A DNA stretch of 64,000 bases from NCBI GenBank assembly GCA_035438745.1, contig DAORIX010000001.1:3075-67074 (forward strand). The letters run 5' to 3'. The DNA comes from Minisyncoccota bacterium. Its GTDB lineage: Bacteria > Patescibacteriota > Minisyncoccia > Phycocordibacterales > UBA6065. The translations under genes and the position numbers were made by a program. The stretch's first letter is position 1, and every line of letters begins with the position of its first letter. The notes beneath the pieces are model-generated. The model ran no database searches and had not been told where the DNA came from. It saw only the letters and a program-made list of their open reading frames with translations. This document shows, one piece after another, positions 25,549 through 54,118 of the stretch.

Positions 25549-28086
25549 TTATTTTTGTGTCCACCCATCAGCCAAATAATCACTCAATTTTTTCCACTTC
25601 ACTTCCTTTTCTTCGCCATTTTTTACAACGACAACCTTTTCATTTCTACCTTTCTTTTCTTCACCAGAGACACGTTGTGTGCTACCTGTAGATGAAATAA
25701 TACGAGCCGCGTCTTCCATCTCTGCGCGCGCTTTTGCTTCATGAACATCCACCGTAGCTCCCAAAGAAGGGATAACACTAATAACATGAGCATTAATCGA
25801 TACAATAAGGTTTTTGAAAAGCAGAGTGCTCTCCTTTTTGTACTCAACGAGAGGGTCACGTTGACCATACGCTCTCAAATTTACTGAGCCACGCAAATAA
25901 TCCATAGCCTCAAGATGCTCCACCCACAACATATCTATAGTCTGCAAAAAAAGTGCTCGCACGTGTTTAACAAAAACATCACTGCCCATAGTTTTTTTCT
26001 TTTCCTCAATTTTTGAGAGAAAATCAGCGTCGTTAGGATCGAGAATACTGTCTAGCTCTGCGAGCACGTCAGCATCAGAACCAAGGAGCATTTTTGATCG
26101 ACGAGTATACACTGTTTTTCGATGTAAATTCATTACGTCGTCATATTCCAAAACATGTTTACGTGCATCAAAGTTGAAACCTTCGATACGATTCTGCGCC
26201 GTCTCAAGAGACCGGTTGATAATACCGTTCTGAATTGGTTCGTCTTCGGGAATACCAAAACGTCCCATCATTCTCTTGATCGTGTCCGAAGCAAAGACAC
26301 GCATAAGAGTATCCTCAAGGGACACAAAAAACTGCGTCGCACCCGGATCGCCCTGCCTACCAGCACGACCACGAAGCTGATTGTCGATACGCCTTGCCTC
26401 ATGTCGTTCGGTTCCTAGAACAAAAAGACCTCCCGCTTCTTTTACCTGCGCATATGCTTCTGGAGTTGCGGGATTACCTCCGAGTTTGATATCAACTCCT
26501 CGTCCCGCCATGTTCGTAGCAATAGTCACCGCACCGAATCGTCCCGCCTGAGCAATAATTTCACCCTCACGTTCATGATTTTTTGCGTTGAGTATTTCAT
26601 GCTTCACACCCTCAGTGCGCAAATACGCAGAGAGCAACTCGTTCTTTTCAATTGATGCTGTTCCAATCAAAACAGGCTGACCTTTTTGATTGAGCTTTTT
26701 TACAGCCTTTGCGATAGCTTTAAATTTACCAATTTCAGTTTGAAAAATAAGATCATCATGATCAATACGGGCAATGACTTTGTTAGTAGGAACAACAATA
26801 GTGGTGAGTCCATACACCTTAAAAAACTCTTCCGATGACGTCTCGGCTGTTCCCGTCATACCGGACAACTTTTTGTAGAGCCTAAAATAATTTTGATAGG
26901 TAATAGATGCAAACGTTCGCGTCTCCTGTTCTATACGTACACCCTCCTTTGCTTCAATAGCTTGATGAAGACCTTCTGACCATCTACGGCCAGGCTGCAT
27001 ACGTCCTGTAAATTCATCTACGATAACTACCTGCCCATCACGCACCACGTATTCTTTGTCTTTATGAAATAGTGCTTTTGCACGCACTGCGGTCTGTAGA
27101 TGGTGTACATATTTCACACCTCTATCAGTATAAATATTTTCAACTCCAAGAGCTTTTTCTGCAGCCTCAATACCTTTTGTAGTGAGAATAACTGATTTGT
27201 GTTTTTCTTCAACGGTATAGTGCTCATCTTTTTTGAGCGTTTCTGCAATACGCGCAAACATTGTATAAAAAGCTTCTGAATCACTTGCCGGCGCAGAAAT
27301 AATCAAAGGGGTACGTGCTTCGTCGATTAAAATAGAGTCTATTTCGTCAACAACGGCATAATTAAAAGGCCGCTGTCGTAAATCTTCCTTACGATAACAA
27401 ATATTGTCTCGAAGATAATCAAATCCAAACTCGCTGTTTGTACCGTAGGTAATATCAGCCTGATATGACTCTCGCCTGCTCACCGGTCGCAAAAACTCAT
27501 GCATCACCTTAAACGATCCCACTTCATCACGCGTCACATCGAGAGGATCACGTGACCCTTCTGTTGTTTCTGTTTTTTTACCATGAAGTGGATCATATAC
27601 GTATGATTCATTATGTCCCACAACACCGACAGAAAGACCGAGAAAATTGTATACCTGTCCCATCCACACGGCGTCTCTGCGAGAAAGATAATCGTTTACG
27701 GTAACAACATGAACACCGAGTCCTGTCAGAGCATTCAAGTACACAGGAAGCGTTGCCACAAGCGTCTTTCCTTCTCCTGTTCTCATTTCTGCAATACCCG
27801 CATGGTGAAGTATTGCTCCTCCGATAATCTGAACATCAAAATGTCGCTGACCGAGCGTTCTCTTTGACGCCTCCCTCACCACAGCGAAAGCGCGTGGCAA
27901 CAGGTCATCGAGAGATGTACCCGAAGCAAGAGCTTTTTTAAAAGAGGTGGTTTCCTCCCGAAGAGCACTATCAGACAATGCCGCTATCTCAGCTTCAAGA
28001 GCGTTCACACGCGGAACAAGGGCCTCATAAGGCTTGAGATTCCGTGCGTTTTGATCTCCAAATAGTTTCTTTAAGAATGAAGCCAT
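25549..28086 (-). CDS. secA: preprotein translocase ATPase SecA
   Basis: MASFLKKLFGD N-terminus, Walker A (MRTGEGKT), DEAD-like motor blocks, HWD/HSD scaffolds. Start at 28086 preferred over 28146; no C-terminal zinc finger. Confidence 0.9.
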   Translation of the reverse strand: MASFLKKLFGDQNARNLKPYEALVPRVNALEAEIAALSDSALREETTSFKKALASGTSLDDLLPRAFAVVREASKRTLGQRHFDVQIIGGAILHHAGIAEMRTGEGKTLVATLPVYLNALTGLGVHVVTVNDYLSRRDAVWMGQVYNFLGLSVGVVGHNESYVYDPLHGKKTETTEGSRDPLDVTRDEVGSFKVMHEFLRPVSRRESYQADITYGTNSEFGFDYLRDNICYRKEDLRQRPFNYAVVDEIDSILIDEARTPLIISAPASDSEAFYTMFARIAETLKKDEHYTVEEKHKSVILTTKGIEAAEKALGVENIYTDRGVKYVHHLQTAVRAKALFHKDKEYVVRDGQVVIVDEFTGRMQPGRRWSEGLHQAIEAKEGVRIEQETRTFASITYQNYFRLYKKLSGMTGTAETSSEEFFKVYGLTTIVVPTNKVIARIDHDDLIFQTEIGKFKAIAKAVKKLNQKGQPVLIGTASIEKNELLSAYLRTEGVKHEILNAKNHEREGEIIAQAGRFGAVTIATNMAGRGVDIKLGGNPATPEAYAQVKEAGGLFVLGTERHEARRIDNQLRGRAGRQGDPGATQFFVSLEDTLMRVFASDTIKRMMGRFGIPEDEPIQNGIINRSLETAQNRIEGFNFDARKHVLEYDDVMNLHRKTVYTRRSKMLLGSDADVLAELDSILDPNDADFLSKIEEKKKTMGSDVFVKHVRALFLQTIDMLWVEHLEAMDYLRGSVNLRAYGQRDPLVEYKKESTLLFKNLIVSINAHVISVIPSLGATVDVHEAKARAEMEDAARIISSTGSTQRVSGEEKKGRNEKVVVVKNGEEKEVKWKKLSDYLADGWTQK

Positions 28087-28163
28087 AAAAAGTGTATAGA
28101 TAGCAATTCTAGCATGTAGTACGCCTTGCGTACCACAAAAAAGCATGATGAATACCCGAGCGC

Positions 28164-29177
28164 TTAAACGAGTTCAACCTCACGTTCTATAGTGATACCT
28201 GTCGAATCATATACCTTTTTTTCAATAGCGCGTGCAAAAGCATCTATCTCGTGAGATGGTGTTTCTTTATGCGCAACAAGTACCAGTGGTTGTTTCTCAA
28301 ATAGTCGACACCGTCCAACCATATAGCCTTTCAAGTGAAGCCCCATATCGAGAATCCATGCGAGAGGAATCTTGTATTCGTTTTCTGACACAGAAAAAGC
28401 CGGAAGCTCTGGCCACAGAACCCTCAACTCATCGAGTTTGGATTTTGAAATAATTGGATTTTTCCAAAATGAACCTGCGGTACCCCACAGAGAAAGTTCG
28501 GGGAATTTCCCCTGACGAATACTAATTACCGCCTCACGAATCTCTCTAAGCGACGGACTAGTGTTTACTCCAAAAAAAGACTGTATGTCCTTATACGCAA
28601 GTCGTGGCGTAGGTGTGCGTGTAAGTCTATATGTAACTGAAAGAATAATCAGATGTTTATGCTCTTTCTTTTTAAAAATACTACTACGGTATCCGAATTC
28701 ACACTCAGAACAAGAAAGTGGTTTGACCTCACCAGAACGTGTATCGAGAACGCGCACAGAATCGATCACATCCTTTATCTCAACCCCATACGCACCTATG
28801 TTTTGTACCGGAGAAGCGCCCACCGTTCCTGGTATGAGCGAAAGATTCTCAAGTCCCCACAATCCATGCATAACAGAATCCTCAACAAACGCATCCCACT
28901 CTTCGCCCGCCTCGGCCGTTACAAAAACAAAAGACCCTTTTTCAGCATAAGAAATACCCTTAGTCCTCACACACATAACTAGACCATCAAAACCCGCATC
29001 CGAAAAAAGAACATTCGAACCACCACCTACTACAAAAAAAGGTATCTGCTGTTTTGTGGCAAAAGAAAGCGCTTTATGTAACTCATCCTCAGTTGTCGCC
29101 ACAGAAAAAAATCGTGCACTCCCTCCCGAACAAAATGTAGTGTACGGCGCGATTTTTACGTTCTCTTCGATAGTCAT
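28164..29177 (-). CDS. murB: UDP-N-acetylenolpyruvoylglucosamine reductase
   Basis: FAD-binding PCMH domain (FFVVGGGSNVLFSD) and MurB C-terminal domain. Confidence 0.85.
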   Translation of the reverse strand: MTIEENVKIAPYTTFCSGGSARFFSVATTEDELHKALSFATKQQIPFFVVGGGSNVLFSDAGFDGLVMCVRTKGISYAEKGSFVFVTAEAGEEWDAFVEDSVMHGLWGLENLSLIPGTVGASPVQNIGAYGVEIKDVIDSVRVLDTRSGEVKPLSCSECEFGYRSSIFKKKEHKHLIILSVTYRLTRTPTPRLAYKDIQSFFGVNTSPSLREIREAVISIRQGKFPELSLWGTAGSFWKNPIISKSKLDELRVLWPELPAFSVSENEYKIPLAWILDMGLHLKGYMVGRCRLFEKQPLVLVAHKETPSHEIDAFARAIEKKVYDSTGITIEREVELV

Positions 29178-29253: not shown

Positions 29254-31455
29254 CTAAGGATTTCTGCCCGCCTCAATTTCTTTTATGTAATACTCACCTT
29301 GCTCTTTGAATGTAGGATCTTTCGCAATAACTTCTCTGATGGTAGCAACCGCACTTCTACGATCACCAGAAGCGAGAAATGTTGCTGCATACTGAAGTCT
29401 GTATTGATTGTTTGATGGGTCTGTATCTAGTCGCTTCTTCCACAAAGCAAGCGCTCGTGACCACTGTTTTGTATCAGTATACGCCCTGATGAGACGATCG
29501 TCCGTAACGAGTGTAGTGCCGTACTTTGACTCAAGCGTTTCTTCTGCTTTTTGCACGTCACCAGAATAAATTGTAGCAATAACATAGTACATAAACGCAT
29601 CTTCATTTCGCACCTCGATCTCGTACGCACGCTTAAACACCTCGAGCGCTTTCGCATAATCTTGCTTCTGCAAATAGAGATTGCCCAACTGATAGAGAAT
29701 ACTCTGTTTGTTTGGAGAAAGTTCGGATGCGCGCAGTGTGTACTTGAGAGCATCGTCAAAAAGACCGTAGTAAGAATAAAATGTTCCTGTAAAAAGCTGA
29801 TAGCGGGCATCGTCAGGAGTATGTTCAAGTTGTTTTGCGAGTTCCGCCTTACCGAGCTCAAAGAAATCCTGCTTCACATTAATCGGAGCAGTTGATGGAT
29901 TGATTTGGCTCACCGCCTCAATAATTCTCTCTCTAATTTCTGACTGACCAAGAGACTCTCTCTTGAGTGCGTCCTTGAAATCCACCACCGCAAGAGCGCC
30001 CATTTGTCCCGCATCCGTACCTAACTTTCTCAAAGCCTCAATAAGAGACCGAGATGCCGCATACGCCTTGAAGTTAACGAGATAAAGGATGACCACGAGC
30101 ATAACAACACAGGCCGGTAAAATGATTTGCTTAAAATCATCATCTCCCACTTCGGTGTCTACGCGTGAAAGTTTGTGAGAAGTTACCGCTACACGCCCGT
30201 GTATATATGCGAGCATAGTAACAAAGATCATGTAGCTCGTGAGATTGTCGAATACAAAAAAGTTATGTATGAAGTACGCAACAAAAAGTCCAGACATCAC
30301 ACTTTTTTCTGTAAATGAAAATGTTTCCTCGGAAGACTTCCACAAACTCCACAGTGCGCTACCGAACAAAAAGAGATACGCAAGGAGACCGAAAATACCT
30401 CCTGCTATAAGCCAATCAAATACAACATTGTGAGTACGATCAAACCACTGTTCCTGAGCATACATACCCGGATTGTAGTATTTGTTAAAAACATAGCTGA
30501 AATTTTCCTGACCCCATCCTAGAATCGGGCGCTCCTTGAAACCTTGCCATGCCATATCCCACACCATAAAACGCGACTTAGTAGTTCCATCATTAAGCGA
30601 GATCGAGGCAAAGCGCGAGAGAACAGGACTTTCGCGAACAAAAGAGGTATTTTTAATGGCCAAGAAACCAAGAACCGTAGCAATACCCAAGCCTAAAATA
30701 ACTCCACAACTAATACGAAGCACTTTATTTTTTCTTTCAAAAATGAGCACGAGAAGAGTCGTCACGCCTATACCCCCAATGAGACCCAAAATCGCACCTC
30801 GAGTTGCGGTGTGATAGAGAATAAATACAAAGAAAAGAGCGAGCACGCTGTATGCATAACCCCATTTCTTTTTCATATCTGTAAAAGAACGCGCCGCAAA
30901 CATTCCTGCAATAAAAATGTTGAAAATCATGTACACCGCGAGATACGTTGCATTGCCGAACGTCGCATCAACACGCACACCTCCTTGATTGATAGTGAAT
31001 TTTCCAAGAAGTTGAGCCACGCCATACAATCCAATACAGAGAGTTGTTCCGAGATATACATTGAGTAGTCGATCCCAAAGTGTTCTTGAAAGCAAAACAC
31101 ATCCAGCCACTACGAAATATACATAGAGATGAAGTATGGTGATGAACCCTTCCATACGCTCATAGTTTGACCAGAATGCCTTGAATGCATTCGGCGCAAA
31201 AGAGTCAGCAATACCAATAATGAGCACGAAGGCAGTAAACGCCCACAAAATGAGAGATTTTTTCGGGCGATACGTGACATCTCTGAGTGCGAGCGCTAAC
31301 CACGCCACGCCAATGATCTCAACAATAATTCTAAATAAAAAATTCTTTCCGGTAATAAAAGGAAAAAACAAACTTCCTGTAACTACAAAAGGAATAAAAG
31401 GAACGGTGAATAAACCGCCCAGAATTATAAAACGCAGAATTTTCTTGAGATTCAT
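29254..31455 (-). CDS. Wzy_C (O-antigen ligase/polymerase-like) polytopic membrane domain fused to C-terminal TPR repeats (paralog 2)
   Basis: About 12 TM helices with Wzy_C-like periplasmic loop (RTHNVVFDWLIAGGIFG) then a 280 aa TPR array (AIEALRKLG..., ALEVFKRAYEIEVRNEDAF...). Confidence 0.75.
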   Translation of the reverse strand: MNLKKILRFIILGGLFTVPFIPFVVTGSLFFPFITGKNFLFRIIVEIIGVAWLALALRDVTYRPKKSLILWAFTAFVLIIGIADSFAPNAFKAFWSNYERMEGFITILHLYVYFVVAGCVLLSRTLWDRLLNVYLGTTLCIGLYGVAQLLGKFTINQGGVRVDATFGNATYLAVYMIFNIFIAGMFAARSFTDMKKKWGYAYSVLALFFVFILYHTATRGAILGLIGGIGVTTLLVLIFERKNKVLRISCGVILGLGIATVLGFLAIKNTSFVRESPVLSRFASISLNDGTTKSRFMVWDMAWQGFKERPILGWGQENFSYVFNKYYNPGMYAQEQWFDRTHNVVFDWLIAGGIFGLLAYLFLFGSALWSLWKSSEETFSFTEKSVMSGLFVAYFIHNFFVFDNLTSYMIFVTMLAYIHGRVAVTSHKLSRVDTEVGDDDFKQIILPACVVMLVVILYLVNFKAYAASRSLIEALRKLGTDAGQMGALAVVDFKDALKRESLGQSEIRERIIEAVSQINPSTAPINVKQDFFELGKAELAKQLEHTPDDARYQLFTGTFYSYYGLFDDALKYTLRASELSPNKQSILYQLGNLYLQKQDYAKALEVFKRAYEIEVRNEDAFMYYVIATIYSGDVQKAEETLESKYGTTLVTDDRLIRAYTDTKQWSRALALWKKRLDTDPSNNQYRLQYAATFLASGDRRSAVATIREVIAKDPTFKEQGEYYIKEIEAGRNP

Positions 31456-32421: not shown

Positions 32422-32670
32422 ATGGTAGAAGAAATAAAACCCAACGCCGTCTATACGACAGAGGAAACAAGACAAGTCCTCCGTATTAGTGACAGCACCA
32501 TTAAGAGACTCCTCAAAAAAGGACTCCTGCGTGCAAACAAAGTTGGAGGACAATACAGAATCATGGGAAAAGAAATTTTACGAGTGGTCTCCCCTGATCT
32601 CGAGAAAGAAGCCGTAAAGTCATACCTCTCTCTCAAGAAAAAAGTAATAAAAAAAATAAACAAATGGTAA
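32422..32670 (+). CDS. excisionase/MerR-like helix-turn-helix DNA-binding protein (HTH_17-type)
   Basis: [38 protein letters not shown] matches the excisionase-family HTH. Stop overlaps the gmd start. An alternative start at 32398 lies inside the promoter spacer. Confidence 0.6.
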
Positions 32671-33761
32671 AATCTAATCCTATGGCCAAAAAACAAAAAA
32701 CAAAAACTAAGAAAGCTCTCATTACCGGAATTACAGGCCAAGACGGTTCTTACCTTGCTGAACTTCTCCTTGAGAAAGGTTATGAAGTCTATGGACTCAT
32801 CAGACGCGCCTCAACATTCAATACCTCTAGAATAGATCACCTTTTCCAAGATCCCCACACAAAAAACAAAAAACTCATACTCTTGTATGGAGACCTCTCT
32901 GACTCGAGCAACCTCTCGCGAATTATTGAAAAAGTAAAGCCAGATGAAATCTACAACCTAGGCGCACAAAGCCATGTCCGCGTCTCTTTTGATATGCCTG
33001 AGTACACCGCTGATGTTGATGCGGTTGGCACATTGCGACTCCTTGATGCAATACGAGAAACAGGAGTAAAAACAAAATTCTACCAAGCATCATCCTCAGA
33101 AATGTATGGAAAAGTTATGGAGGTACCTCAGACAGAAACAACCCCCTTCTACCCCCGATCACCCTATGCAGTTGCAAAAGTATTTGCTTATTGGATTACA
33201 AAAAACTACCGAGAGGCGTACAACCTATTTGCAGTAAATGGAATTCTCTTTAACCACGAATCTCCTCGTCGAGGAAAAACTTTTGTAACGAAAAAAATCA
33301 CTCGCGGACTATCGCGCATCAAGCTTGGTATTGATGAAAAGATGTATCTCGGAAATCTCGACGCGAAGCGTGACTGGGGTTACACAAAAGACTATGTATA
33401 TGGAATGTGGCTCACCCTTCAACAAAAAAAACCGGATGACTACGTACTCGCCACAGGAGAAACACATTCTGTACGAGAGTTTATAGAAGAATCTGCGAAA
33501 TGCCTCGATATCGATCTCGTCTGGAAAGGAAAAGGAGTTGATGAAAAAGGAATTGATAAGAGAACAGGAAAAACAATCATAGAGATTGACCCTGCGTATT
33601 TTCGCCCAGCTGAAGTAGACCTCCTTATTGGAGATGCATCAAAAGCCAAAAAAGAACTGGGTTGGAAACCTACCGTTGATTTTAAAGGTCTCGTAAAAAT
33701 GATGTGTGAATACGACCTTGAGGAAGAAACTCAAAACAAACAAAATCTCGCACGAAAATAA
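32664..33761 (+). CDS. gmd: GDP-mannose 4,6-dehydratase
   Basis: [33 protein letters not shown]-terminus, catalytic SSSEMYG...Y..AK, GME-unrelated long loop; start 32664 or 32682. Confidence 0.9.
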
Positions 33762-33762
33762 C

Positions 33763-34692
33763 ATGAATAAAAATTCAAAAATTTATATAGCCGGCCATTT
33801 AGGACTTGTAGGATCAGCTATTTTGAGAAAGCTCAATAAAGAAGGCTACACAAACCTCATTACAAAATCTCGTAAAGAGCTTGACCTTACTGATCAAAAA
33901 GCAGTGAAAGATTTTTTTGAAAAAACAAAGCCCGAATATGTATTTCTTGCCGCGGCAAAGGTGGGTGGAATTATGGCAAACAAAACCTACCCTGGAGAAT
34001 TTATTTCCGAAAATCTCGACATCCAAAATAATATAATAAAAAACTCCTACATCCACGGAGTAAAGAAACTGTTGTTTCTTGGAAGTTCGTGTATATACCC
34101 AAAACTAGCTACCCAGCCAATAAAGGAGGAGTATTTTATGACGGGTCCCCTTGAGCCAACAAATGAGGCGTATGCGATTGCAAAAATTGCAGGAATTTCA
34201 ATGTGCCAGTCATACCGAAAACAATATGGAGCTGATTTCATATCACTCATGCCGACAAATCTCTATGGACCGGGCGACAACTTCACGAACGAAAGAGGTC
34301 ATGTGATTCCGGCACTCATTAGAAAATTTCATGATGCAAAAGCCAAAAATCTTGACGAGATATCAGCATGGGGCACAGGATCAGCAAAACGAGAATTTTT
34401 ACACTCGGATGATTTAGCTGATGCGTGTGTGTTCCTCATGAAGAATTACTCCTCGGGAGATATTATAAACGTTGGTACAGGCGAAGACGTCACTATCAAA
34501 GAACTCACCGAAAAAATTAGCAAGATCGTTGGCTTTAAAGGAAAAATTGTCTGGGACACCACAAAACCAGACGGTGCTCCCCGAAGACTACTTGATGTAG
34601 AAAAACTTCACACCCTAGGTTGGAAACACCACATAGAACTCGAAAAAGGTCTTGAAGAAACCTATGAGTGGTTCAAAAAAAATGTCATCTAA
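33763..34692 (+). CDS. fcl: GDP-L-fucose synthase family (GDP-4-keto-6-deoxy-D-mannose 3,5-epimerase/4-reductase; Fcl/WcaG, or a ColC-type paralog)
   Basis: [19 protein letters not shown] Rossmann start, [18 protein letters not shown] blocks; start at MNKNSK (33763) abuts the gmd stop. Confidence 0.8.
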
Positions 34693-34696
34693 AAAA

Positions 34697-35911
34697 ATGA
34701 AAAAAGGTAAAAAAAATACAGCAGTACCCTACAAAGTACCCCTCATGAAAAATGCTTTTATTGAGGAAAAGAGCGTCAGGGCAAAACTCTCACAATTTGT
34801 TCTCACTGCCCCACGCCTCAGTATGGATTTACAATGCGCTCAGTTTGAAAAAACGTTCGCGAAAAAACAGGGTCGAAAATACGCGATTTTATTCAACAGC
34901 GGAGGAAGCGCAAACCTCGCAATGATACAAGCGCTCAAAAACTTAGGCGCACTCAAGGACAATGACAAAGTAGGCTTCTCTGCTGTTACCTGGTCAACAA
35001 ATGTTATGCCCATCCTACAAATGGGACTTGGTGCCGTTCCTATCGACTGTGACCCCACCACACTCAACTCAATGAGCCATTGTGCCTTACCCCGACTTGA
35101 ACAAGAAAAGTGTAAAGCCTTTTTTATAACCAACGTACTAGGTTTTTCTGGTGATCTCGATGTAATCGAAAAAGAATGTGCAAAAAAAGGAATTATAGTA
35201 CTCGAGGACAACTGTGAATCACTTGGCACCGTGCTCCATACAGGAAAGACGGGTAATTTTAGTCTTGCATCAAGTTTTTCTTTTTTTGTTGCCCACCATA
35301 TGTCAACAATTGAAGGAGGCATGGTGTGTACAGACGATCACGATTTTGCAGAAATGCTCAAAATAGTTCGAGCTAATGGTTGGGATAGAAATCTCCACCC
35401 AAAGAGACAAAAACACTGGCGCAAGAAACATGAAGTAGAATCTTCTTTTCACGCAAAATACACTTTTTATGACCTCGGCTTTAACTTACGTCCTACTGAA
35501 ATAACTGGTTTTATTGGACTCAATCAACTTCCCCACCTCGATAAAACTATCAAAATTCGTGAAAAGAATTTCAAAAAAATATACGCACAAATATTAAAAA
35601 ATGATGATTTTCTAAAAATCTCACACGATCACCTCAAAACCATTTCTGCTTTTGCAATACCTTTCATATGTAAAACACCGGAGCTCAGAAAAAAATATAT
35701 CAAAATATTCAACGATGCAGGAGTTGAGATTAGACCAATGATTGCTGGAAATATGCAAAAGCAACCATTCTCGAAAAAATACACGTCAAAAACATTTGAT
35801 CTTCCTGGTGCTGATGTATTGCACGACAATGCTTTTTATTGTGGAAATTGTCCCGACTACACGCCTGCGGAGATAGAAATCATTTTAAATTGTATAATAA
35901 AAGGAAAATAA
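34697..35911 (+). CDS. DegT/DnrJ/EryC1-family PLP enzyme with His replacing the Schiff-base Lys: ColD/E1-like sugar 3-dehydratase candidate
   Basis: Fold-type I aminotransferase blocks (FEKTFA..KYAILFNSGGSANL, GDLD..IVLEDNCESLG). Where the family has SFxxxK....GEGG the sequence reads SFFVAHHMSTIEGG. Confidence 0.6.
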   Translation: MKKGKKNTAVPYKVPLMKNAFIEEKSVRAKLSQFVLTAPRLSMDLQCAQFEKTFAKKQGRKYAILFNSGGSANLAMIQALKNLGALKDNDKVGFSAVTWSTNVMPILQMGLGAVPIDCDPTTLNSMSHCALPRLEQEKCKAFFITNVLGFSGDLDVIEKECAKKGIIVLEDNCESLGTVLHTGKTGNFSLASSFSFFVAHHMSTIEGGMVCTDDHDFAEMLKIVRANGWDRNLHPKRQKHWRKKHEVESSFHAKYTFYDLGFNLRPTEITGFIGLNQLPHLDKTIKIREKNFKKIYAQILKNDDFLKISHDHLKTISAFAIPFICKTPELRKKYIKIFNDAGVEIRPMIAGNMQKQPFSKKYTSKTFDLPGADVLHDNAFYCGNCPDYTPAEIEIILNCIIKGK

Positions 35912-35912
35912 T

Positions 35913-36737
35913 ATGGAAACTCCCGTAACAATACTCCGCCCAAAAAAAACCATCACCCTAAACGACCTCAAAGAACTCTGGCGCTACCGTGAGCTTCTTT
36001 ATTTTTTTACATGGCGCGATCTCAAAGTTCGATATAAACAAACCCTTATTGGTGCACTGTGGGCTATACTTCAACCTCTCGTTACGATGGTCATCTTTAC
36101 TGTATTTTTTGGTAAGTTGGCACAAATGCCATCTGACGGAGTTCCGTATCCAATCTTTGTTTACGTCGGTCTCCTTTTCTGGCAATTTTTTTCGAGCGCT
36201 CTCTCAGAAACATCTAATGTTCTTATTTCAAACCAAGCAATCATAACCAAAGTTTACTTTCCTCGCCTCATCTTGCCGTTATCGTCAGTACTTACCAAAT
36301 TTGTTGATTTTGCAATTGCATCTCTCATCCTTATTGGAATGATGGTCTATTACGGATATACGCCCCACCTTCTAGGGATTTTCATCATTCCTCTCCTTCT
36401 CCTCATTACCTTCATGGCTGCTGTTGGTAGTGGTCTATGTTTAGCATCAGTAAACGTTAAGTACCGAGATGTTAGATATGCTCTGCCCTTTTTTATACAA
36501 ATACTCCTTTTCCTTACCCCAGTTATTTATCCCGCATCAATTGCAGGCAACTATTCATGGCTCCTGGCGCTTAATCCAATGACGGGGGTAATTCAATCTG
36601 CTCGAGCGGCTCTCCTCGGAACAACACCAATCAACTGGCTCCTTCTCGCTATTTCATCCTTGGCGTGTTTGTGTCTTCTTATTATTGGTGGTATCTATTT
36701 CAAAAAAATAGAACGCTATTTTGCAGATATTTTATAA
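35913..36737 (+). CDS. wzm: ABC-2 type polysaccharide export permease (Wzm/TagG/KpsM family)
   Basis: 274 aa, 6 TM, N-terminal RELLYFFTWRDLKVRYKQTLIGALWAILQP signature of Wzm permeases. Confidence 0.8.
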   Translation: METPVTILRPKKTITLNDLKELWRYRELLYFFTWRDLKVRYKQTLIGALWAILQPLVTMVIFTVFFGKLAQMPSDGVPYPIFVYVGLLFWQFFSSALSETSNVLISNQAIITKVYFPRLILPLSSVLTKFVDFAIASLILIGMMVYYGYTPHLLGIFIIPLLLLITFMAAVGSGLCLASVNVKYRDVRYALPFFIQILLFLTPVIYPASIAGNYSWLLALNPMTGVIQSARAALLGTTPINWLLLAISSLACLCLLIIGGIYFKKIERYFADIL

Positions 36738-36741
36738 AAAA

Positions 36742-38001
36742 ATGGAACCCATAATTGAAGTAAAAAATGTCGGTAAAAAATACAACATAAAGCACTACCA
36801 AGGTGGCTATGTTGCGTTGCGTGATGTGATCATGAATATAGTCAAAAACCCTTTTCGCTTTGCAAAAGAAAAAGCAAAAGCAGTCACAGGAATAGGAACA
36901 AAGGAAGAGTTCTGGGCGCTCAAAGAAGCAAGCTTTAACATTTTCCAAGGAGAAGTGGTTGGAATCATCGGAAGAAATGGGGCCGGAAAATCAACTCTCC
37001 TCAAAATACTGACTGGCATTACACCTCCTACAACAGGAGAAATAAAAATGCGCGGTAGAGTCGCTTCCCTTCTTGAAGTCGGTACGGGGTTCCATCCAGA
37101 ACTTACTGGCCGAGAAAACATATTCCTCAACGGTGCAATTCTCGGAATGAAAAAAAGTGAAATCGCAAAAAACTTTGACTCGATTGTTGCGTTTGCTGAA
37201 ATAGAAAAATTCCTCGATACCCCAGTAAAATACTACTCAAGTGGAATGTATGTCCGTCTCGCCTTTTCAGTAGCCGCGCACATGGAACCAGACATACTCC
37301 TCGTGGATGAAGTACTCGCTGTGGGTGATGCAGAATTCCAAAAAAAGTGCCTTGGAAAAATGGAAGAGGTTACCAAGAAACAAGGCCGTACCATACTCTT
37401 TGTGAGTCACAACATGGCAGCAATTCAAAATCTCTGTAAAAAATGCATCCTCTTAGAAAAAGGAAAAATCAAAGCGGTTGGTGACACAGAAGACATTGTA
37501 AACCTCTACCTCCACAATTCCGAGTCAGAGGCAACAGAAAAAAAATGGGAGGGAGACAAGCGTCCAGGAAATGATGTTGTACGACTAAACCATGTTCGTC
37601 TTGTTGATGAAAATAAAGAAACCACGAGCTTTGTCTACTCAAATAAAAAATTTGGATTAGAAATATCCTACGAGGTTCTCAAATCTGGTTTTGCACCTCT
37701 TCCCAATGTTCACTTTTTCACAAATAAAGGGGAATATGCATTTATTAGCCACGCTGACGTAAAAGAAGAAAATGATAAAGTAGGAAAACACACGAAAACT
37801 GTGTGGGTCCCCGGAAATCTCCTTAATGAAGGTACCTACTCAATCGGTGTTGCTCTTTCAACTATGATTCCGCTCAACATACACCTCTATGAAAGAGAGC
37901 TTATTGTGTTCCAAGTGCTTGAGGATATTCACAGTGCAAAGAAACACGACTTCAATGTGCGTATACCGGGAGTTGTCCGCCCTCGACTAGTATGGGAATA
38001 A
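36742..38001 (+). CDS. wzt: polysaccharide ABC exporter ATP-binding protein with C-terminal carbohydrate-binding (Wzt_C-like) domain
   Basis: Walker A GRNGAGKST, signature YSSGM, Walker B LLVDEVLAVGD; an extra about 170 aa beta-rich C-terminal domain as in Wzt. Confidence 0.8.
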   Translation: MEPIIEVKNVGKKYNIKHYQGGYVALRDVIMNIVKNPFRFAKEKAKAVTGIGTKEEFWALKEASFNIFQGEVVGIIGRNGAGKSTLLKILTGITPPTTGEIKMRGRVASLLEVGTGFHPELTGRENIFLNGAILGMKKSEIAKNFDSIVAFAEIEKFLDTPVKYYSSGMYVRLAFSVAAHMEPDILLVDEVLAVGDAEFQKKCLGKMEEVTKKQGRTILFVSHNMAAIQNLCKKCILLEKGKIKAVGDTEDIVNLYLHNSESEATEKKWEGDKRPGNDVVRLNHVRLVDENKETTSFVYSNKKFGLEISYEVLKSGFAPLPNVHFFTNKGEYAFISHADVKEENDKVGKHTKTVWVPGNLLNEGTYSIGVALSTMIPLNIHLYERELIVFQVLEDIHSAKKHDFNVRIPGVVRPRLVWE

Positions 38002-38010
38002 CAAAAATCA

Positions 38011-38667
38011 ATGCTCAAAAAAATATACTATTCGATAAGAAACAAGATCCTAAAATATAAAATGGGATCTTACCCTGTGTGGAATATCTACGAGGGGCAC
38101 TTTAAAACGACGTACCGTTCTATACCGATGTTAAAATGCCCTTTTGACTATGTTATGTATCAAATGATTGTGTCAAAGATACAACCAGATCTCATTATTG
38201 AAATCGGAACAAACGTGGGAGGAACAACCTTATACCTGGCTGACATCCTCAACACCCTTGGCAAAGGAGAGATCCACACAATAGATATCGATGATCGAGT
38301 TAATCCCCTAGCACGATCTCATCCACGCATAAAATGCTTTAACGGCGGATGGAAAAACTACGATCTTTCAAATACAAAAAAATTCTCAAAGATACTCGTC
38401 ATTGATGATGCGTCGCATCAATTTAAAGACACATTAGAAGCAATGGAGAAGTTTTCGAACGTCGTGTCTATTGATTCTTATTTAATCATAGAGGACGGTA
38501 TTGTTACTCAACTCAAAAGAGACAAACAACTTGATGGAGGACCTCTTCGGGCAATAGAAAAATTTCTTGAAACAAACAACAACTTCCTCGTTGATGACTC
38601 TTACTGCAATATGTTTGGTAAAAACGCAACCTTCAACACGAAAGGTTACCTAAAAAGAGTTAAATAA
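38011..38667 (+). CDS. CmcI-family (cephalosporin hydroxylase-like) SAM-dependent sugar O-methyltransferase
   Basis: LIIEIGTNVGGTTLYLADIL SAM-binding block and overall CmcI/rhamnosyl-O-MT layout. Confidence 0.7.
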   Translation: MLKKIYYSIRNKILKYKMGSYPVWNIYEGHFKTTYRSIPMLKCPFDYVMYQMIVSKIQPDLIIEIGTNVGGTTLYLADILNTLGKGEIHTIDIDDRVNPLARSHPRIKCFNGGWKNYDLSNTKKFSKILVIDDASHQFKDTLEAMEKFSNVVSIDSYLIIEDGIVTQLKRDKQLDGGPLRAIEKFLETNNNFLVDDSYCNMFGKNATFNTKGYLKRVK

Positions 38668-38668
38668 A

Positions 38669-39538
38669 ATGGCCAAAGTTTTTATCGGTATGCCTGTATA
38701 TAATGGTGAGCACTTCCTAAAAGAAGCCCTCGACTCTCTGTGTTCGCAGACATATTCTAATTGGAATATGCATATCTCTGATGATGGTTCCACCGACTCT
38801 ACCGAAGCGATTTGTCGCCTCTATGTAGAAAAAGACAAACGTATAACCTACTACCGCCAGCCAAAAAATATCGGTATGTTTGAGAATTTTAAATACACCC
38901 TAGAGAAATCAAACTCGGAATATTTTATGTGGGCAGCCCAAGATGATCTCTGGGAAAAAACATTTCTTGAAACATGCGTCTCGATTCTCGACAATGATAC
39001 TCGCGTTGGACTTGCCGGAACCACAATCGCTGAAATAGACTCTTATGGAAGAACCGCTCGTGAACTACTCTCACTGGAAAAACTTTCTGGTAAACCAAGT
39101 GTAAAAACAATTACCCACTACGTTCTCGAACCAGAAATACTTGGAAGGTGTAACATTATGTATGGCCTCTGGAGAACCGCCGCCATAAAAGAAACATGGA
39201 AAGCGTATCCCCAACGATCTGTCTGGGGACAGGACTACATGTTTGTACTGGCAGGTATTTCGCGTTTTGGCGTAAAGATTGATAACAAGACACTATTCAA
39301 AAAAAGACTTGGTGGATACTCGAGTCCCGATGCGACAAAAAATGACGCGCCCGGAGAGACACAAAAACGTACCATTACCAACCCCAAAGACTATATTTTC
39401 CCCCTTGGAAGGTTTAATGTTTACTTTAAGGGCCACATGGAAGCGTTACGAGGTACGCCCTATCAACCTCTCGCTGCAGTACTCTTATTAGCAAGGCTCC
39501 CTCGGGCATTATGGAATCATTTTAAACAAACACCATGA
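38669..39538 (+). CDS. family 2 glycosyltransferase
   Basis: IGMPVYNGEHFLKEALDSLCSQTY..ISDDGSTD GT-A N-terminus and DxD region. Confidence 0.8.
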   Translation: MAKVFIGMPVYNGEHFLKEALDSLCSQTYSNWNMHISDDGSTDSTEAICRLYVEKDKRITYYRQPKNIGMFENFKYTLEKSNSEYFMWAAQDDLWEKTFLETCVSILDNDTRVGLAGTTIAEIDSYGRTARELLSLEKLSGKPSVKTITHYVLEPEILGRCNIMYGLWRTAAIKETWKAYPQRSVWGQDYMFVLAGISRFGVKIDNKTLFKKRLGGYSSPDATKNDAPGETQKRTITNPKDYIFPLGRFNVYFKGHMEALRGTPYQPLAAVLLLARLPRALWNHFKQTP

Positions 39539-40419
39539 TCATCGTAAAACTTTCAGGCGGTTTAGGAAATCAACTCTTTCAATATGCCTTCGCACGTGCT
39601 GTATCAAAAAAACTCAATACAGATTTTAAGCTTGATGCGACACCTTTTGAGACGTACTACAAACTCCACAAATATGCACTCAATCACTTTAATCTTACTG
39701 AAAAATTAGCGAAAAGAAGCGATATGTTTGGTTTTGTTTGGATACGAGAACGTCACAAATTTTTTGACACTTTTTATAGATACCTCCGACTCAAAAGCAA
39801 ACTTATGCCTTTTTACTATCCTGAGCAACGATTTGATTTTGATCCCAATGTGTTTAAAAAAGACAACATGTACTTTGACGGCTTTTGGCAAACAGAAAAA
39901 TATTTCAAAAATATCGAGAACGAACTCAAAGAAGAAATGACTCTCAAAAAGCCACTTTCTCCGTATAGTCAGTCTGTACTCGATCAAATACAAAAAACCA
40001 ATGCTGTTTGCCTCCACATACGACGTGGCGACTATGTCACCAATGCAAGCACGAACGCAGTTCACGGTACCTGTTCACTTGAATACTACGAACGCGCCAT
40101 CAAATACATATCCGAGAAAGTAGACTCTCCTCATTTTTTTATATTCTCAGATGATTATCCTTGGGCGGTAGAGAATTTTAAAAATCGACCCTACCCTGTT
40201 ACGTGTATTTCAAATGGTGCTGACAAAAACTACGAAGACCTGACTTTAATGTCTCACTGTAAACACTTCATCATCGCCAATTCAAGCTTTAGTTGGTGGG
40301 GTGCATGGCTTTCAAGAAACACAGACAAAATTGTAATTGGTCCAAAAGAGTGGTTTAAAAGCAAAAAAACAACGGTCAGCACTGATGACGTGATTCCTTC
40401 CTCGTGGATAAAAATGTAA
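39535..40419 (+). CDS. GT11 alpha-1,2-fucosyltransferase family protein
   Basis: GT11 motif I GGLGNQLFQYAFARA and motif II HIRRGDY, plus the C-terminal NSSFSWWGAWL block. Confidence 0.8.
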   Translation: MIIVKLSGGLGNQLFQYAFARAVSKKLNTDFKLDATPFETYYKLHKYALNHFNLTEKLAKRSDMFGFVWIRERHKFFDTFYRYLRLKSKLMPFYYPEQRFDFDPNVFKKDNMYFDGFWQTEKYFKNIENELKEEMTLKKPLSPYSQSVLDQIQKTNAVCLHIRRGDYVTNASTNAVHGTCSLEYYERAIKYISEKVDSPHFFIFSDDYPWAVENFKNRPYPVTCISNGADKNYEDLTLMSHCKHFIIANSSFSWWGAWLSRNTDKIVIGPKEWFKSKKTTVSTDDVIPSSWIKM

Positions 40420-40423
40420 ACAT

Positions 40424-42175
40424 ATGTGTGGAATACTCGCTATAACAGGGAAAAATACAAAAAAAATCGAGGATACAACTATCTCGAGCATGCTTTCTAC
40501 TCTCTCAAAACGAGGTCCTGATGAAAGTAGTTTCGAAAGAATAGGTCCTACGGTTCTTGGCCAAACAAGACTTGCTATCGTTGATCTCTCCGGTGGGCAC
40601 CAACCCATGCGTGACAACAAAGACAATCTTACACTCGTATTTAACGGTGAAATATATGGATATAAAGAAACTCGTGAAATCCTAGAGAAACGAGGTCATG
40701 TATTCTCAACTCACTCTGACACCGAAGTTATTCTCAAGGCATATTCAGAGTATGGAAAAGACTGTGTACTTCATCTCGATGGTATGTTTGCTTTTGCATT
40801 ATGGGACGAAACAAAACAAGAGCTTTTCGTGGCACGCGATCGTTTTGGCAAAAAACCCCTGTACTACACCTCTGTCGACCAGACCTTTTTTGCCGCTTCT
40901 GAAATAAAAACACTCTTTGCGACAGGGATTATTAAAGGAGAAATCGATCCTTCTGCACTCGATGACTATTTGCGTCTTATGTACATCCCTTCATACAAAA
41001 GTATCTATAAAAACATCGGGGTACTTCCCCCTGCACATGCGGGTATTGTTAAAAACGGCGCACTTGAAACATGGCAATACTGGAAATTAGAAAAAGCACC
41101 GTGTGAGGACTCCTACGAAGAAGCTAAAACAAAAATAAAAAAACTATTCAGTGATGCAGTAAAAAAAAGAATGGTCGCCGATGTTGAAGTTGGCTCACTC
41201 CTCTCAGGTGGAGTTGATTCGACAATCGTAACCCACGAGGCGCAAAAATACATGAATCGACCTATAAAAACTTTTGCGGTCGGGTACGGCACACACAAAA
41301 ACGAGCTCCCTTTTGCGAAAATTGCATCAGAAAAAATAGGCAGTGACCACTACACCCTCACTACTGAAGATTTTAATATGGAAGGTTTCCTTGAGGTTGT
41401 TGCGTACTTTGACGAACCCCATGCTGACTCATCGAACTACCCGCAGTCCTTTGTTTCAAAACTCGCTTCTTCAAAAGTGAAAGTCGCGCTTTCCGGTGAT
41501 GGCGCGGATGAATTTTTTATGGGTTATGGTTGGTACCAAAAGTACTGGCACACCCCTCTCCTTAAAAAAATATTCACCACTCCTTGGAGATCCTATACAG
41601 ACGTGATCGAAGTCTTCAAAACAAAAGACAGAAAAGGGCTTCTTGGTGCACAGAAAAACAACAAGGCTTTTGAAAAAAACGCTCTCAAAAACGCAAAAAA
41701 CAACACCGAAAAAATAAATGATTTTGACATACACATATACCTTCCTGGACAGCTACTATCAAAAGTAGACCGAACAAGCATGATGCACTCCTTGGAAATC
41801 AGATCCCCTTTTCTAGATACAAAACTTGCAGAATATGTCTACAATCTCCCTACTGCTTTTAAAATATCTAAAAATGCAAATAAAATAATACTCAAAGACA
41901 TCCTGTCTGAAACCTTTCCGAAAGATTTTGTTTACAGAAGGAAACAAGGCTTTGGTGCACCGATAGGAGCATGGCTCTCAAAAGAAGATCTACAAAAAAA
42001 ACTTGCCGAGATATTTAGTAACCAAAAACACCCGATGTTTAGTTATATAAAGTACGACAAAGCCTTACAAATCAAAGAAAAGGCTTTTCAGAATATGAAA
42101 ACATATGCCCCTCGATTGTGGTCATTGTTTTGTCTCGCTCTGTGGTTCGAACAACATCACAAACACCATGAATAA
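40424..42175 (+). CDS. asparagine synthase (glutamine-hydrolysing)-like amidotransferase
   Basis: N-terminal MCGI Ntn-glutaminase nucleophile; PP-loop SGGVDS in the synthetase domain; 583 aa. Confidence 0.8.
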   Translation: MCGILAITGKNTKKIEDTTISSMLSTLSKRGPDESSFERIGPTVLGQTRLAIVDLSGGHQPMRDNKDNLTLVFNGEIYGYKETREILEKRGHVFSTHSDTEVILKAYSEYGKDCVLHLDGMFAFALWDETKQELFVARDRFGKKPLYYTSVDQTFFAASEIKTLFATGIIKGEIDPSALDDYLRLMYIPSYKSIYKNIGVLPPAHAGIVKNGALETWQYWKLEKAPCEDSYEEAKTKIKKLFSDAVKKRMVADVEVGSLLSGGVDSTIVTHEAQKYMNRPIKTFAVGYGTHKNELPFAKIASEKIGSDHYTLTTEDFNMEGFLEVVAYFDEPHADSSNYPQSFVSKLASSKVKVALSGDGADEFFMGYGWYQKYWHTPLLKKIFTTPWRSYTDVIEVFKTKDRKGLLGAQKNNKAFEKNALKNAKNNTEKINDFDIHIYLPGQLLSKVDRTSMMHSLEIRSPFLDTKLAEYVYNLPTAFKISKNANKIILKDILSETFPKDFVYRRKQGFGAPIGAWLSKEDLQKKLAEIFSNQKHPMFSYIKYDKALQIKEKAFQNMKTYAPRLWSLFCLALWFEQHHKHHE

Positions 42176-43319: not shown

Positions 43320-43324
43320 TACCC

Positions 43325-44173: not shown

Positions 44174-44183
44174 ATCAAAAAAC

Positions 44184-45395: not shown

Positions 45396-45397
45396 AA

Positions 45398-46237: not shown

Positions 46238-46242
46238 CCAAA

Positions 46243-47007: not shown

Positions 47008-47011
47008 TCAC

Positions 47012-47932: not shown

Positions 47933-47934
47933 AA

Positions 47935-48070
47935 ACACACACATAGGCATTTTTAGGGCTTTTTGAAGCAAAAGGTAGAATCCCTGTGCAGCGGAGTAAC
48001 AAAAGCCCCCTAAAGGGCCATTATAAGCCTCAGAAGAGCCGTGGAAAGAGCCTAGGGGATTTACACCGAT
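47935..48070 (+). other. 136-nt structured intergenic segment between convergent genes (candidate 3'UTR element or small RNA)
   Basis: Imperfect long-range pairing tagggctttt / aaaagcccccta enclosing about 40 nt, several GC-rich local stems, followed immediately by a strong terminator. Confidence 0.2.
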
Positions 48071-48104
48071 AAAAACACCCGTACATACGGGTGTTTTTAT
48101 TTTA
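48071..48104. terminator. bidirectional rho-independent terminator between the plus-strand glycan operon and the convergent GME gene
   Basis: aaaaacacccgta-cata-cgggtgttttt with T-run on both strands. Confidence 0.6.
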
Positions 48105-50764: not shown

Positions 50765-50771
50765 AGAAACT

Positions 50772-54106: not shown

Positions 54107-54118
54107 GAAAAAAGTATT

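What the first reader, a model, noticed from the sequence alone, without database searches (positions are those of the whole stretch)
29254..31455. Second Wzy_C-TPR paralog beside murB/secA, retaining the HN..G.G loop the first paralog may lack
Paralog 2 carries RTHNVVFDWLIAGGIFG, which resembles the conserved His-containing periplasmic loop of WaaL/Wzy_C enzymes. My alignment to paralog 1 places a Trp where the His is expected (VFWNVDFNYGIGF). If that alignment is right, the pair is one catalytic and one degenerate or regulatory copy, or the two have different substrates.
Basis: inference. Interest (0 to 1): 0.55.

Follow-up and report, generated by a model that had tools for sequence, protein, structure and literature searches.

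The report
Intact glycan ligase plus histidine-less paralog
This ultra-small (Patescibacteria) bacterium carries one ordinary, catalytically intact WaaL-type surface-glycan ligase next to murB/secA, and a very distant sister protein with the same fold that lacks the catalytic histidine, belongs to a large unnamed family, and almost always sits directly in front of the lipid II flippase gene murJ.

Summary
The ORF at 29254-31455 (-) encodes a 733-aa protein with 13 predicted TM helices and a C-terminal TPR domain. It matches Pfam Wzy_C (E 5e-21) and contains RTHNVVFDWLIAGGIFG. A family profile aligns it to the solved WaaL ligase 7TPG so that R219, R295 and H342 match R191, R265 and H313. All three are invariant in 50 homologs. 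The gene order P2-murB-secA is fixed in five genomes, at the edge of a variable glycan gene island.

This copy is not decaying. It represents at least 1,328 clusters (at 50% identity), with near-invariant aromatic residues and R296 on the predicted outer face. MurJ lies directly downstream in 72 of 80 species loci (median gap 19 nt).

Verdict: one ordinary ligase, plus an unnamed WaaL-fold variant whose function is unknown.

The parts
29254..31455 (-). P2: 733-aa WaaL/PglL-type Und-PP-glycan transferase (Wzy_C) with a C-terminal TPR domain
   Evidence: ORF. Pfam Wzy_C E 4.9e-21 plus TPR families. More than 6,000 homologs in the search, and all 120 listed carry PF04932; those that have a source name are mostly called 'O-antigen ligase family protein'.
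30019..31455 (-). P2 membrane domain (aa 1-479), 13 predicted TM helices, WaaL fold
   Evidence: AF2 model pLDDT 82, pTM 0.86. Best Foldseek PDB hit is WaaL 7tpg_B, E 2.6e-6, TM 0.55/0.64, followed by FtsW.
30373..30843 (-). P2 Wzy_C domain (aa 205-361), containing the three WaaL active-site equivalents: R219 (30799-30801), R295 (30571-30573) and H342 (30430-30432)
   Evidence: Profile-to-7tpg_B alignment, E 6.4e-7, pairs TATRG with GTRGA (R191), SRF with VRL (R265) and THN with AHN (H313) (hhalign control 96%). All three are invariant in 50 homologs.
29257..29898 (-). P2 C-terminal TPR domain (about aa 520-733), inferred to lie outside the membrane
   Evidence: TPR Pfam hits at aa 538-724. 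Thirteen TM helices after a Lys/Arg-rich N-terminus place the C-terminus outside (inference).
10741..13107 (-). P1: 788-aa distant paralog with a WaaL-fold membrane domain lacking the catalytic His, plus a C-terminal TPR domain
   Evidence: Only TPR Pfam hits. hhalign against the P2 family: 95.7%, E 1e-8, 368 columns.
11641..13107 (-). P1 membrane domain (aa 1-489), 13 predicted TM helices. Family-invariant residues include W229 (12421-12423) and R296 (12220-12222).
12055..12093 (-). P1 loop VFWNVDFNYGIGF (aa 339-351) just before TM10, the counterpart of the WaaL His loop. It contains no His.
   Evidence: W341 and F345 are 99% conserved in 141 cluster representatives. The residue opposite H342 is F345 by hhalign or I349 by MAFFT.
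9055..10734 (-). MurJ-family (MOP) flippase gene, 6 nt downstream of P1
   Evidence: Pfam MurJ E 1.4e-57. TIGR01695 full-length match, 193 bits, below its 235-bit cutoff. Directly downstream of P1 in 72 of 80 species loci, median gap 19 nt.
28164..29177 (-). murB, 76 nt downstream of P2
   Evidence: NF000755, 330.8 bits, above cutoff. murB follows P2 in four other genomes, directly (gaps of 4-260 nt) in three and after a few short ORFs in L085.
25549..28146 (-). secA, following murB
   Evidence: SecA_DEAD E 1.4e-121. Same gene order in the other genomes.
32664..62015 (.). Surface-glycan biosynthesis island, divergent from P2. It holds GDP-sugar genes, Wzm (35913-36737) and Wzt with a Wzt_C domain (36721-38001), methyltransferases, GT2/GT4/GT11 enzymes, an AsnB homolog and a PMT_2 GT-C. 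It is the likely source of the lipid-linked donor for P2.
   Evidence: Island content differs between genomes (Wzm/Wzt in some, a Wzx-type flippase in others) while P2-murB-secA stays fixed.

Best explanation
P2 (29254-31455) is a working WaaL/PglL-type transferase. Its WaaL-fold membrane domain keeps the two arginines that hold the pyrophosphate of an undecaprenyl-PP-linked glycan (R219, R295) and the histidine proposed as the catalytic base (H342). It is a conserved core gene (P2-murB-secA) bordering a variable glycan gene island. The island here exports its product through a Wzm/Wzt ABC transporter.

The most likely mechanism is that P2 takes the finished lipid-linked glycan at the outer face of the membrane and transfers it en bloc to a conserved non-LPS acceptor. 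That acceptor could be a surface protein such as an S-layer protein or pilin, a membrane glycolipid, or the cell wall. The outward-facing TPR domain would help hold the acceptor or a partner protein.

P1 (10741-13107) is an ancient, very divergent paralog with the same fold and architecture. It has replaced the first Arg and the His with hydrophobic or aromatic residues and keeps only the second Arg (R296). It is strongly conserved and forms an operon-like pair with murJ. It therefore does a different job on a conserved lipid-linked substrate, not the same ligation.

Shown here: homology, predicted fold, residue retention and loss, conservation and synteny. Inferred: the donor, the acceptor, the TPR topology, and any activity of P1.
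For: P2:
- Pfam Wzy_C, E 4.9e-21.
- The only PDB sequence hit of its family profile is WaaL 7tpg_B (E 6.4e-7), with R191/R265/H313 paired to R219/R295/H342 (hhalign control 96%).
- These three residues are invariant in 50 homologs.
- The AF2 model's best PDB match is WaaL.
- In five genomes P2-murB-secA lies next to differing glycan clusters, with Wzm/Wzt or a Wzx-type flippase.
- Published role of the residues: the Arg residues coordinate the pyrophosphate, the His is the proposed base, and PglS H324A is inactive (PMC12800693).
- Precedents in bacteria without LPS: WsfB, a Wzy_C protein with a C-terminal TPR motif, is the predicted S-layer O-oligosaccharyltransferase, and S-layer glycan clusters use Wzm/Wzt, a methyl cap and an AsnB homolog (PMC2943079). 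TacL, also a Wzy_C protein, ligates teichoic acid to a glycolipid (PMC5727136).

P1:
- hhalign against the P2 family: 95.7%, E 1e-8 over 368 columns.
- No conserved His anywhere in the TM domain; W341/F345 99%, W229/W178 95%, R296 87%.
- Conservation is concentrated in the predicted outer loops.
- At least 1,328 clusters at E<=1e-30 and 194 GTDB species loci.
- murJ directly downstream in 72 of 80 loci, median gap 19 nt.
Against: - No biochemical data exist for either family.
- No acceptor gene (S-layer protein, pilin, glycolipid synthase) was identified in the window.
- Both fold assignments rest on AF2 models built from alignments of only 25-26 sequences. I had no coordinates, so the residue mapping for P1 comes from sequence profiles, and these disagree by 4 residues at the His position and by 1 residue at the first Arg.
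- The P1-murJ-lepA order may partly reflect general housekeeping synteny. In at least three genomes P1 is followed directly by lepA with no murJ.
- The MurJ homolog scores below NCBIfam's trusted cutoff, so its substrate is not certain.
Confidence: 0.7

Rival explanations
1. P1 is a catalytically active polymerase-type GT-C enzyme, like Wzy, TuaE or a SEDS protein. It would act on the lipid-linked unit flipped by the adjacent MurJ-family flippase (lipid II or a conserved wall polymer), with an Asp or Glu as the base and R296 holding the pyrophosphate.
For: P1 has a WaaL/SEDS-type predicted fold. It retains R296 and conserved acidic positions D/E180 (94%), E/D294 (92%) and D344 (73%) in the predicted outer loops. 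It forms a tight operon-like pair with a MOP-family flippase in 72 of 80 species. Gram-positive pairs of an RfaL/Wzy_C-like predicted polymerase with a MATE-like flippase exist (SscD/SscE, TuaE/TuaB; PMC11841062). A single WaaL point mutation lets E. coli attach peptidoglycan subunits to LPS (PMC4296511).
Confidence: 0.3
2. P1 is a non-catalytic pseudo-enzyme. It would be a WaaL-fold protein that binds a glycan or lipid carrier and, with its TPR domain, scaffolds or regulates MurJ or wall assembly.
For: Two of the three WaaL active-site residues are lost, including the proposed base. The near-invariant residues are mostly Trp and Phe, as expected for sugar or lipid binding rather than catalysis. 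P1 carries a long TPR domain with strong matches (TPR_19 E 7.5e-24). It is tightly linked to murJ.
Against: R296 and the acidic positions remain conserved. Nothing tested here shows absence of activity. No interaction data exist.
Confidence: 0.3
3. P2 is a Wzy-type polymerase rather than a ligase or oligosaccharyltransferase.
For: Wzy_C is shared by polymerases and ligases. Two related genomes have a Wzx-type flippase directly upstream of P2.
Against: P2 keeps the complete WaaL Arg/Arg/His set and matches WaaL at the sequence level. In this window and in GCA_035546035.1 the neighbouring cluster is ABC-transporter dependent (Wzm/Wzt; the window's Wzt carries a Wzt_C domain), a route that needs no Wzy. 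P2 is highly conserved while the clusters vary, which is the opposite of typical Wzy behaviour.
Confidence: 0.08
4. The two proteins are not paralogs. Their resemblance comes from hydrophobic composition and the ubiquitous TPR repeats.
For: Pairwise BLASTP finds only the TPRs (E 1e-6) and a weak N-terminal stretch (E 3e-4). The P1 profile against a CmWaaL fragment is not significant. P1 has no PDB sequence hit.
Confidence: 0.04

Closest known systems
WaaL O-antigen ligase (Cupriavidus metallidurans WaaL, PDB 7TPG/7TPJ; Pfam Wzy_C PF04932)
   Different: Both proteins have a 13th predicted TM helix and a C-terminal TPR domain of about 250-300 aa. The host is a Patescibacteria member, a group generally held to lack LPS (my background knowledge, not tested here), so the acceptor is unlikely to be lipid A-core. 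P1 lacks the His and the first Arg and has no Wzy_C signal.
O-oligosaccharyltransferases PglL/PglS and the predicted S-layer enzymes WsfB (Paenibacillus alvei) and WsaB (Geobacillus stearothermophilus)
   Same: They have a Wzy_C domain with a catalytic His. WsfB and PglL have a C-terminal TPR motif. S-layer glycan clusters have Wzm/Wzt, a methyl cap and an AsnB homolog, as this window does (PMC2943079; PMC12800693).
   Different: No acceptor protein or sequon is known here. P2 is fixed beside murB/secA and is not encoded inside the glycan cluster.
TacL (Streptococcus pneumoniae lipoteichoic acid ligase)
   Same: It is a Wzy_C membrane protein in a bacterium without LPS that moves an Und-PP-built polymer onto a membrane glycolipid (PMC5727136). 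This is a plausible alternative acceptor class for P2.
   Different: TacL is 397 aa with no TPR domain. No teichoic-acid-type genes were seen in the window's island.
Wzy_C/RfaL-like predicted polymerases paired with MOP flippases (TuaE/TuaB, SscD/SscE) and SEDS polymerases RodA/FtsW
   Same: P1 sits next to a MOP-family flippase and has a related GT-C type fold (PMC11841062).
   Different: P1 matches no Wzy_C or SEDS profile. It is closer in fold to WaaL than to SEDS proteins, carries a TPR domain, and lies among housekeeping genes.

Membership tests
WaaL / O-antigen ligase family (Pfam Wzy_C): P2 | Wzy_C profile match above the gathering score | tested here: met
   PF04932, 75.5 bits against a cutoff of 31.7, residues 205-361.
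WaaL / O-antigen ligase family (Pfam Wzy_C): P2 | Two pyrophosphate-binding Arg residues and the catalytic His (CmWaaL R191, R265, H313) | tested here: met
   R219, R295 and H342 pair with them in the profile-to-7tpg_B alignment. They are invariant in 50 homologs.
WaaL / O-antigen ligase family (Pfam Wzy_C): P2 | WaaL membrane fold with a large outer loop before TM10 | tested here: met
   The AF2 model's top PDB hit is 7tpg_B, TM 0.55/0.64. This rests on a prediction, not a solved structure.
WaaL / O-antigen ligase family (Pfam Wzy_C): P2 | Transfers the glycan to lipid A-core | not testable with these tools
Patescibacteria are generally held to lack LPS (my background knowledge), so a different acceptor is expected.
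WaaL / O-antigen ligase family (Pfam Wzy_C): P1 | Wzy_C profile match | tested here: not met
   No Pfam hit for aa 1-489 at E<=10. None of the 120 listed homologs carries PF04932.
WaaL / O-antigen ligase family (Pfam Wzy_C): P1 | Catalytic His in the loop before TM10 | tested here: not met
   No His in aa 330-353. No His column above 37% in 141 cluster representatives. The aligned residue is F345 or I349.
WaaL / O-antigen ligase family (Pfam Wzy_C): P1 | Two pyrophosphate-binding Arg residues | tested here: inconclusive
   The second Arg is kept (R296, 87%; paired with P2 R295 by hhalign and mafft-profile). The first is replaced by W229 (hhalign) or A228 (MAFFT iterative modes); mafft-profile leaves a gap there.
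WaaL / O-antigen ligase family (Pfam Wzy_C): P1 | WaaL membrane fold | tested here: met
O-oligosaccharyltransferase (PglL/WsfB type): P2 | Wzy_C domain with catalytic His plus an extracytoplasmic C-terminal domain or TPR | tested here: met
   The architecture is described for WsfB and PglL in PMC2943079.
O-oligosaccharyltransferase (PglL/WsfB type): P2 | Glycosylates Ser/Thr of a protein acceptor | not testable with these tools
   No acceptor was identified in the window, and sequence does not separate ligases from O-oligosaccharyltransferases.
SEDS polymerases (RodA/FtsW): P1 | Sequence-profile match to the SEDS family, and closest fold match to RodA/FtsW | tested here: not met
Wzy-type polymerase: P1 | Encoded with a MOP flippase inside a repeat-unit glycan cluster | tested here: inconclusive
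   A MOP (MurJ-family) flippase is adjacent in 72 of 80 loci, but the surroundings are housekeeping genes (RNR, lepA, gatB), not a glycan cluster.

The most novel reading that the evidence does not exclude
The His-less WaaL-fold/TPR family (P1) is an unrecognised component of cell-envelope assembly in Paceibacteria. It would work directly with MurJ on flipped lipid II or another conserved Und-PP-linked unit. It could be a WaaL-derived polymerase or ligase with non-histidine chemistry, or an obligatory MurJ partner that hands the lipid-linked precursor to the wall machinery.
Probability: 0.2. Interest if true: 0.75.

Novelty: new variant of a known kind. Interest (0 to 1): 0.45.

Why it matters
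Patescibacteria make up a large share of bacterial diversity, are mostly uncultured, and are thought to live attached to host cells, so their surface chemistry matters for their lifestyle.

P2 identifies the probable last step that puts a strain-variable glycan on the cell surface in bacteria generally held to lack LPS. Its conserved position marks where the variable glycan island sits.

P1 matters more if it is real biology. It shows that the WaaL fold has given rise to a large, conserved family (at least 1,328 clusters at 50% identity) that has no Pfam model for its membrane domain and lacks the hallmark histidine. This family is genetically tied to the lipid II flippase. That gives a concrete, testable candidate for an unknown step in envelope assembly, and a natural experiment on what the WaaL histidine is needed for.

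Tried and rejected
- Pfam and NCBIfam scans of P1's TM domain found nothing, even at E<=10.
- A PDB sequence search with the P1 family profile gave no hit at E<=10.
- hhalign of the P1 profile against a CmWaaL fragment (residues 163-337, copied from the output) was not significant (probability 0.7%). I used it only to see that the TTG..G anchor lines up.
- I looked for P2 within 10 kb of P1 in 80 species loci by tblastn and found none. This is uninformative, because the two genes lie more than 10 kb apart wherever both were seen. Co-occurrence could therefore be shown for only three contigs by matching contig lengths, and I fetched two of them.
- Literature searches for a Wzy_C/TPR protein or an O-antigen ligase in Patescibacteria, and for WaaL-like proteins linked to MurJ, found no description of either family.
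- I could not superpose the models on 7TPG because coordinates are not exposed, so the three-dimensional position of P1's conserved residues is not established.
Full report
**What is at the coordinates.** The ORF at 29254..31455 on the minus strand starts with ATG and encodes 733 aa. It contains RTHNVVFDWLIAGGIFG starting at base 30438, so H342 is encoded at 30430-30432. Pfam gives Wzy_C (PF04932) over residues 205-361 (E 4.9e-21, 75.5 bits against a cutoff of 31.7) and many TPR families over residues 538-724. Downstream on the same strand lie murB (28164-29177; NF000755, 330.8 bits, above cutoff) and secA (25549-28146). I call the murB-side protein P2 and the other P1.

**Organism.** Homologs of both proteins come from Paceibacterota, Parcubacteria and Taylorbacteria MAGs, which belong to Patescibacteria. 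A species-representative contig, CAZLHP010000004.1, is 94% identical over P1.

**P2 is an intact WaaL-type enzyme.**
- A profile of 25 P2-family membrane domains (alignment A4) finds exactly one PDB sequence: the Cupriavidus metallidurans WaaL ligase 7tpg_B (E 6.4e-7).
- The printed alignment pairs TATRG with GTRGA (CmWaaL R191 with P2 R219), SRF with VRL (R265 with R295), and THN with AHN (H313 with H342). An hhalign control gave 96% probability.
- R219, R295 and H342 are invariant in 50 full-length homologs of 44-86% identity.
- The AF2 model (pLDDT 82, pTM 0.86; 13 helices) has WaaL as its best PDB match (E 2.6e-6, TM 0.55/0.64), followed by FtsW.
- The literature describes the Arg residues as pyrophosphate ligands and the His as the proposed catalytic base. 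PglS H324A is used as an inactive control (PMC12800693).
- The P2 search returned more than 6,000 homologs. All 120 listed carry PF04932, and those with a source name are mostly labelled "O-antigen ligase family protein". P2 itself is therefore an ordinary member of an already annotated family.

**Context of P2.**
- Divergently upstream of P2 lies a glycan island of about 30 kb (32664 to about 62015). It encodes a GDP-mannose dehydratase, an epimerase/reductase, a DegT aminotransferase, and Wzm plus Wzt (with a Wzt_C carbohydrate-binding domain).
- It also encodes CmcI-like and FkbM-like methyltransferases, GT2, GT4 and GT11 enzymes, an AsnB homolog and a PMT_2 GT-C.
- In four other genomes at about 46-52% identity, P2-murB-secA is kept while the upstream island changes. 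One has Wzm/Wzt (GCA_035546035.1). Two have a Wzx-type flippase. One has a minimal set of two GT4 genes and a TrwB-like ATPase.
- A conserved transferase beside a variable glycan cluster is what one expects of a donor-promiscuous ligase or oligosaccharyltransferase.
- Patescibacteria are generally held to lack LPS (my background knowledge). The closest functional precedents are therefore the predicted S-layer O-oligosaccharyltransferases and the teichoic acid ligase TacL.
- WsfB has a Wzy_C domain and a C-terminal TPR motif, and S-layer glycan clusters use Wzm/Wzt, a methyl cap and an AsnB homolog (PMC2943079).
- TacL is a Wzy_C protein that ligates teichoic acid to a glycolipid (PMC5727136).
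- Thirteen TM helices after a Lys/Arg-rich N-terminus put the TPR domain outside the membrane, next to the active site (inference).

**P1 is a real but very remote homolog.**
- Its membrane domain (aa 1-489) has no Pfam hit at E<=10, no PDB sequence hit, and only weak BLASTP similarity to P2.
- Profiles of the membrane domains alone align at 95.7% probability, E 1e-8, over 368 columns. A global run gave 97%.
- The AF2 model (pLDDT 84.9, pTM 0.88; 13 helices) hits WaaL first by Foldseek (E 1.9e-7).
- P1 is therefore a WaaL-fold protein with the same TM-plus-TPR architecture. It is not a Wzy_C protein by the family's own profile.

**The histidine question.**
- hhalign places P2 H342 opposite P1 F345, R219 opposite W229, and R295 opposite R296.
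- Four MAFFT strategies place H342 opposite I349. The three iterative modes place R219 opposite A228, and mafft-profile leaves a gap there.
No aligner reproduces it.
- The conclusion does not depend on the alignment. The loop before TM10 (aa 330-353) contains no His. In 141 representatives of 50%-identity clusters, no His column in the whole membrane domain exceeds 37%.
- P1 therefore lacks the catalytic His and the first Arg, and keeps the second Arg (R296, 87%).

**P1 is not a decaying copy.**
- A profile search of 1.84 billion cluster representatives finds 4,797 proteins at E<=1e-3 and 1,328 at E<=1e-30. The best 150 are mostly 650-850 aa, with some truncated.
- A scan of GTDB species genomes finds 194 loci.
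- Conservation across the 141 representatives is W341 99%, F345 99%, W229 95%, W178 95%, P297 97%, F323 99%, D/E180 94% and E/D294 92%.
- In both families, conservation is concentrated in the odd-numbered loops predicted to face outward, which is the face that carries WaaL's active site. The Lys/Arg-rich even-numbered loops are poorly conserved.

**P1 and murJ.**
- In the window, the P1 stop codon lies 6 nt from the start of a MurJ-family gene at 9055-10734 (Pfam MurJ E 1.4e-57; TIGR01695 full-length but below its cutoff).
- In 72 of the best 80 species loci, murJ follows P1 directly. Five of the other eight are contigs that end within or just after P1, and three have lepA directly after P1 with no murJ.
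- The median gap between the P1 stop and the first possible murJ start is 19 nt, and 60 of 71 gaps are under 100 nt. This holds down to 33-35% P1 identity.
- lepA follows in 61 of 80 loci, whereas the upstream genes vary (RNR 25, gatB 16).
- One further genome also lacks murJ between P1 and lepA.

**Conservation of the pair.** P1 and P2 homologs share contigs in at least three other assemblies, judged by matching contig lengths. I fetched two of them. Both have the order island / P2-murB-secA ... P1-(murJ)-lepA, with the two genes about 17 kb and about 10 kb apart.

**Interpretation.** P2 is the ligase or oligosaccharyltransferase for the neighbouring glycan. P1 is an ancient paralog re-purposed for a conserved substrate. 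The evidence does not separate two readings for P1.
- One reading is a polymerase-type enzyme that uses an acidic base. Precedents are the predicted polymerase/flippase pairs TuaE/TuaB and SscD/SscE (PMC11841062), and the finding that a single WaaL point mutation lets E. coli attach peptidoglycan subunits to LPS (PMC4296511).
- The other reading is a non-catalytic binder or scaffold that works with MurJ.

**Limits.** The models are predictions from shallow alignments. I had no coordinates for superposition. No acceptor was identified. Some of the synteny may be inherited housekeeping gene order. My literature searches found no description of either family in Patescibacteria, but the searchable library is incomplete.

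**Scores.** P2 alone is a new member of a known kind and is already annotated as such. The P1 family is a new variant of the WaaL kind. Overall interest is 0.45.

Noticed in passing
window 9055-13107 (-); loci L005-L084: P1 and the MurJ-family flippase gene form a tight, operon-like pair. The gap is 6 nt in the window. The median gap is 19 nt across 71 species loci, and murJ is directly downstream in 72 of 80 loci.
   Followed up: yes
window 32664-62015: This is a surface-glycan island of about 30 kb. It is ABC-transporter dependent (Wzm, plus Wzt with a Wzt_C domain) and includes CmcI-like and FkbM-like methyltransferases, which suggests a methyl-capped chain. It also has two GT11 fucosyltransferase-like genes, an AsnB homolog and many GT2/GT4 genes. 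Its content differs between related genomes while the flanking P2-murB-secA is fixed.
   Followed up: partly
window 51587-52966 (-): A second membrane glycosyltransferase of a different class (PMT_2 / ArnT-like GT-C, E 3.4e-7) lies inside the island. It would add sugar from a polyprenyl-phosphate donor on the outer face.
   Followed up: no
window 62155-63993 (-); L086 1176-3191: A TrwB/VirD4-like coupling ATPase (DUF87, TrwB_AAD_bind) lies at the far end of the island. A similar gene lies beside GT4 genes upstream of P2 in another genome, so it may mark the conserved far border of the variable island.
   Followed up: no
window 31557-32327 (-): A 256-aa ORF with a TTG start lies between P2 and the glycan island. 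It has no Pfam or NCBIfam match, and a 234-aa ORF overlaps it on the opposite strand.
   Followed up: no
L073 and L083 (MAG NZBM01, isolate ARS1360): One MAG carries two separate RNR-P1-MurJ-LepA loci on different contigs. This could be two strains binned together or a duplicated segment.
   Followed up: no
window 29254-31455 (-), P2 residues 31-46, 95-109 and 157-168: Besides the WaaL Arg/Arg/His set, the P2 family has invariant motifs in the N-terminal outer loops: FPFITGK..FR...E, WSNYERMEG.....H and QGG.R.D...GN. P1 does not share them. They are candidates for the binding site of a conserved acceptor.
   Followed up: partly
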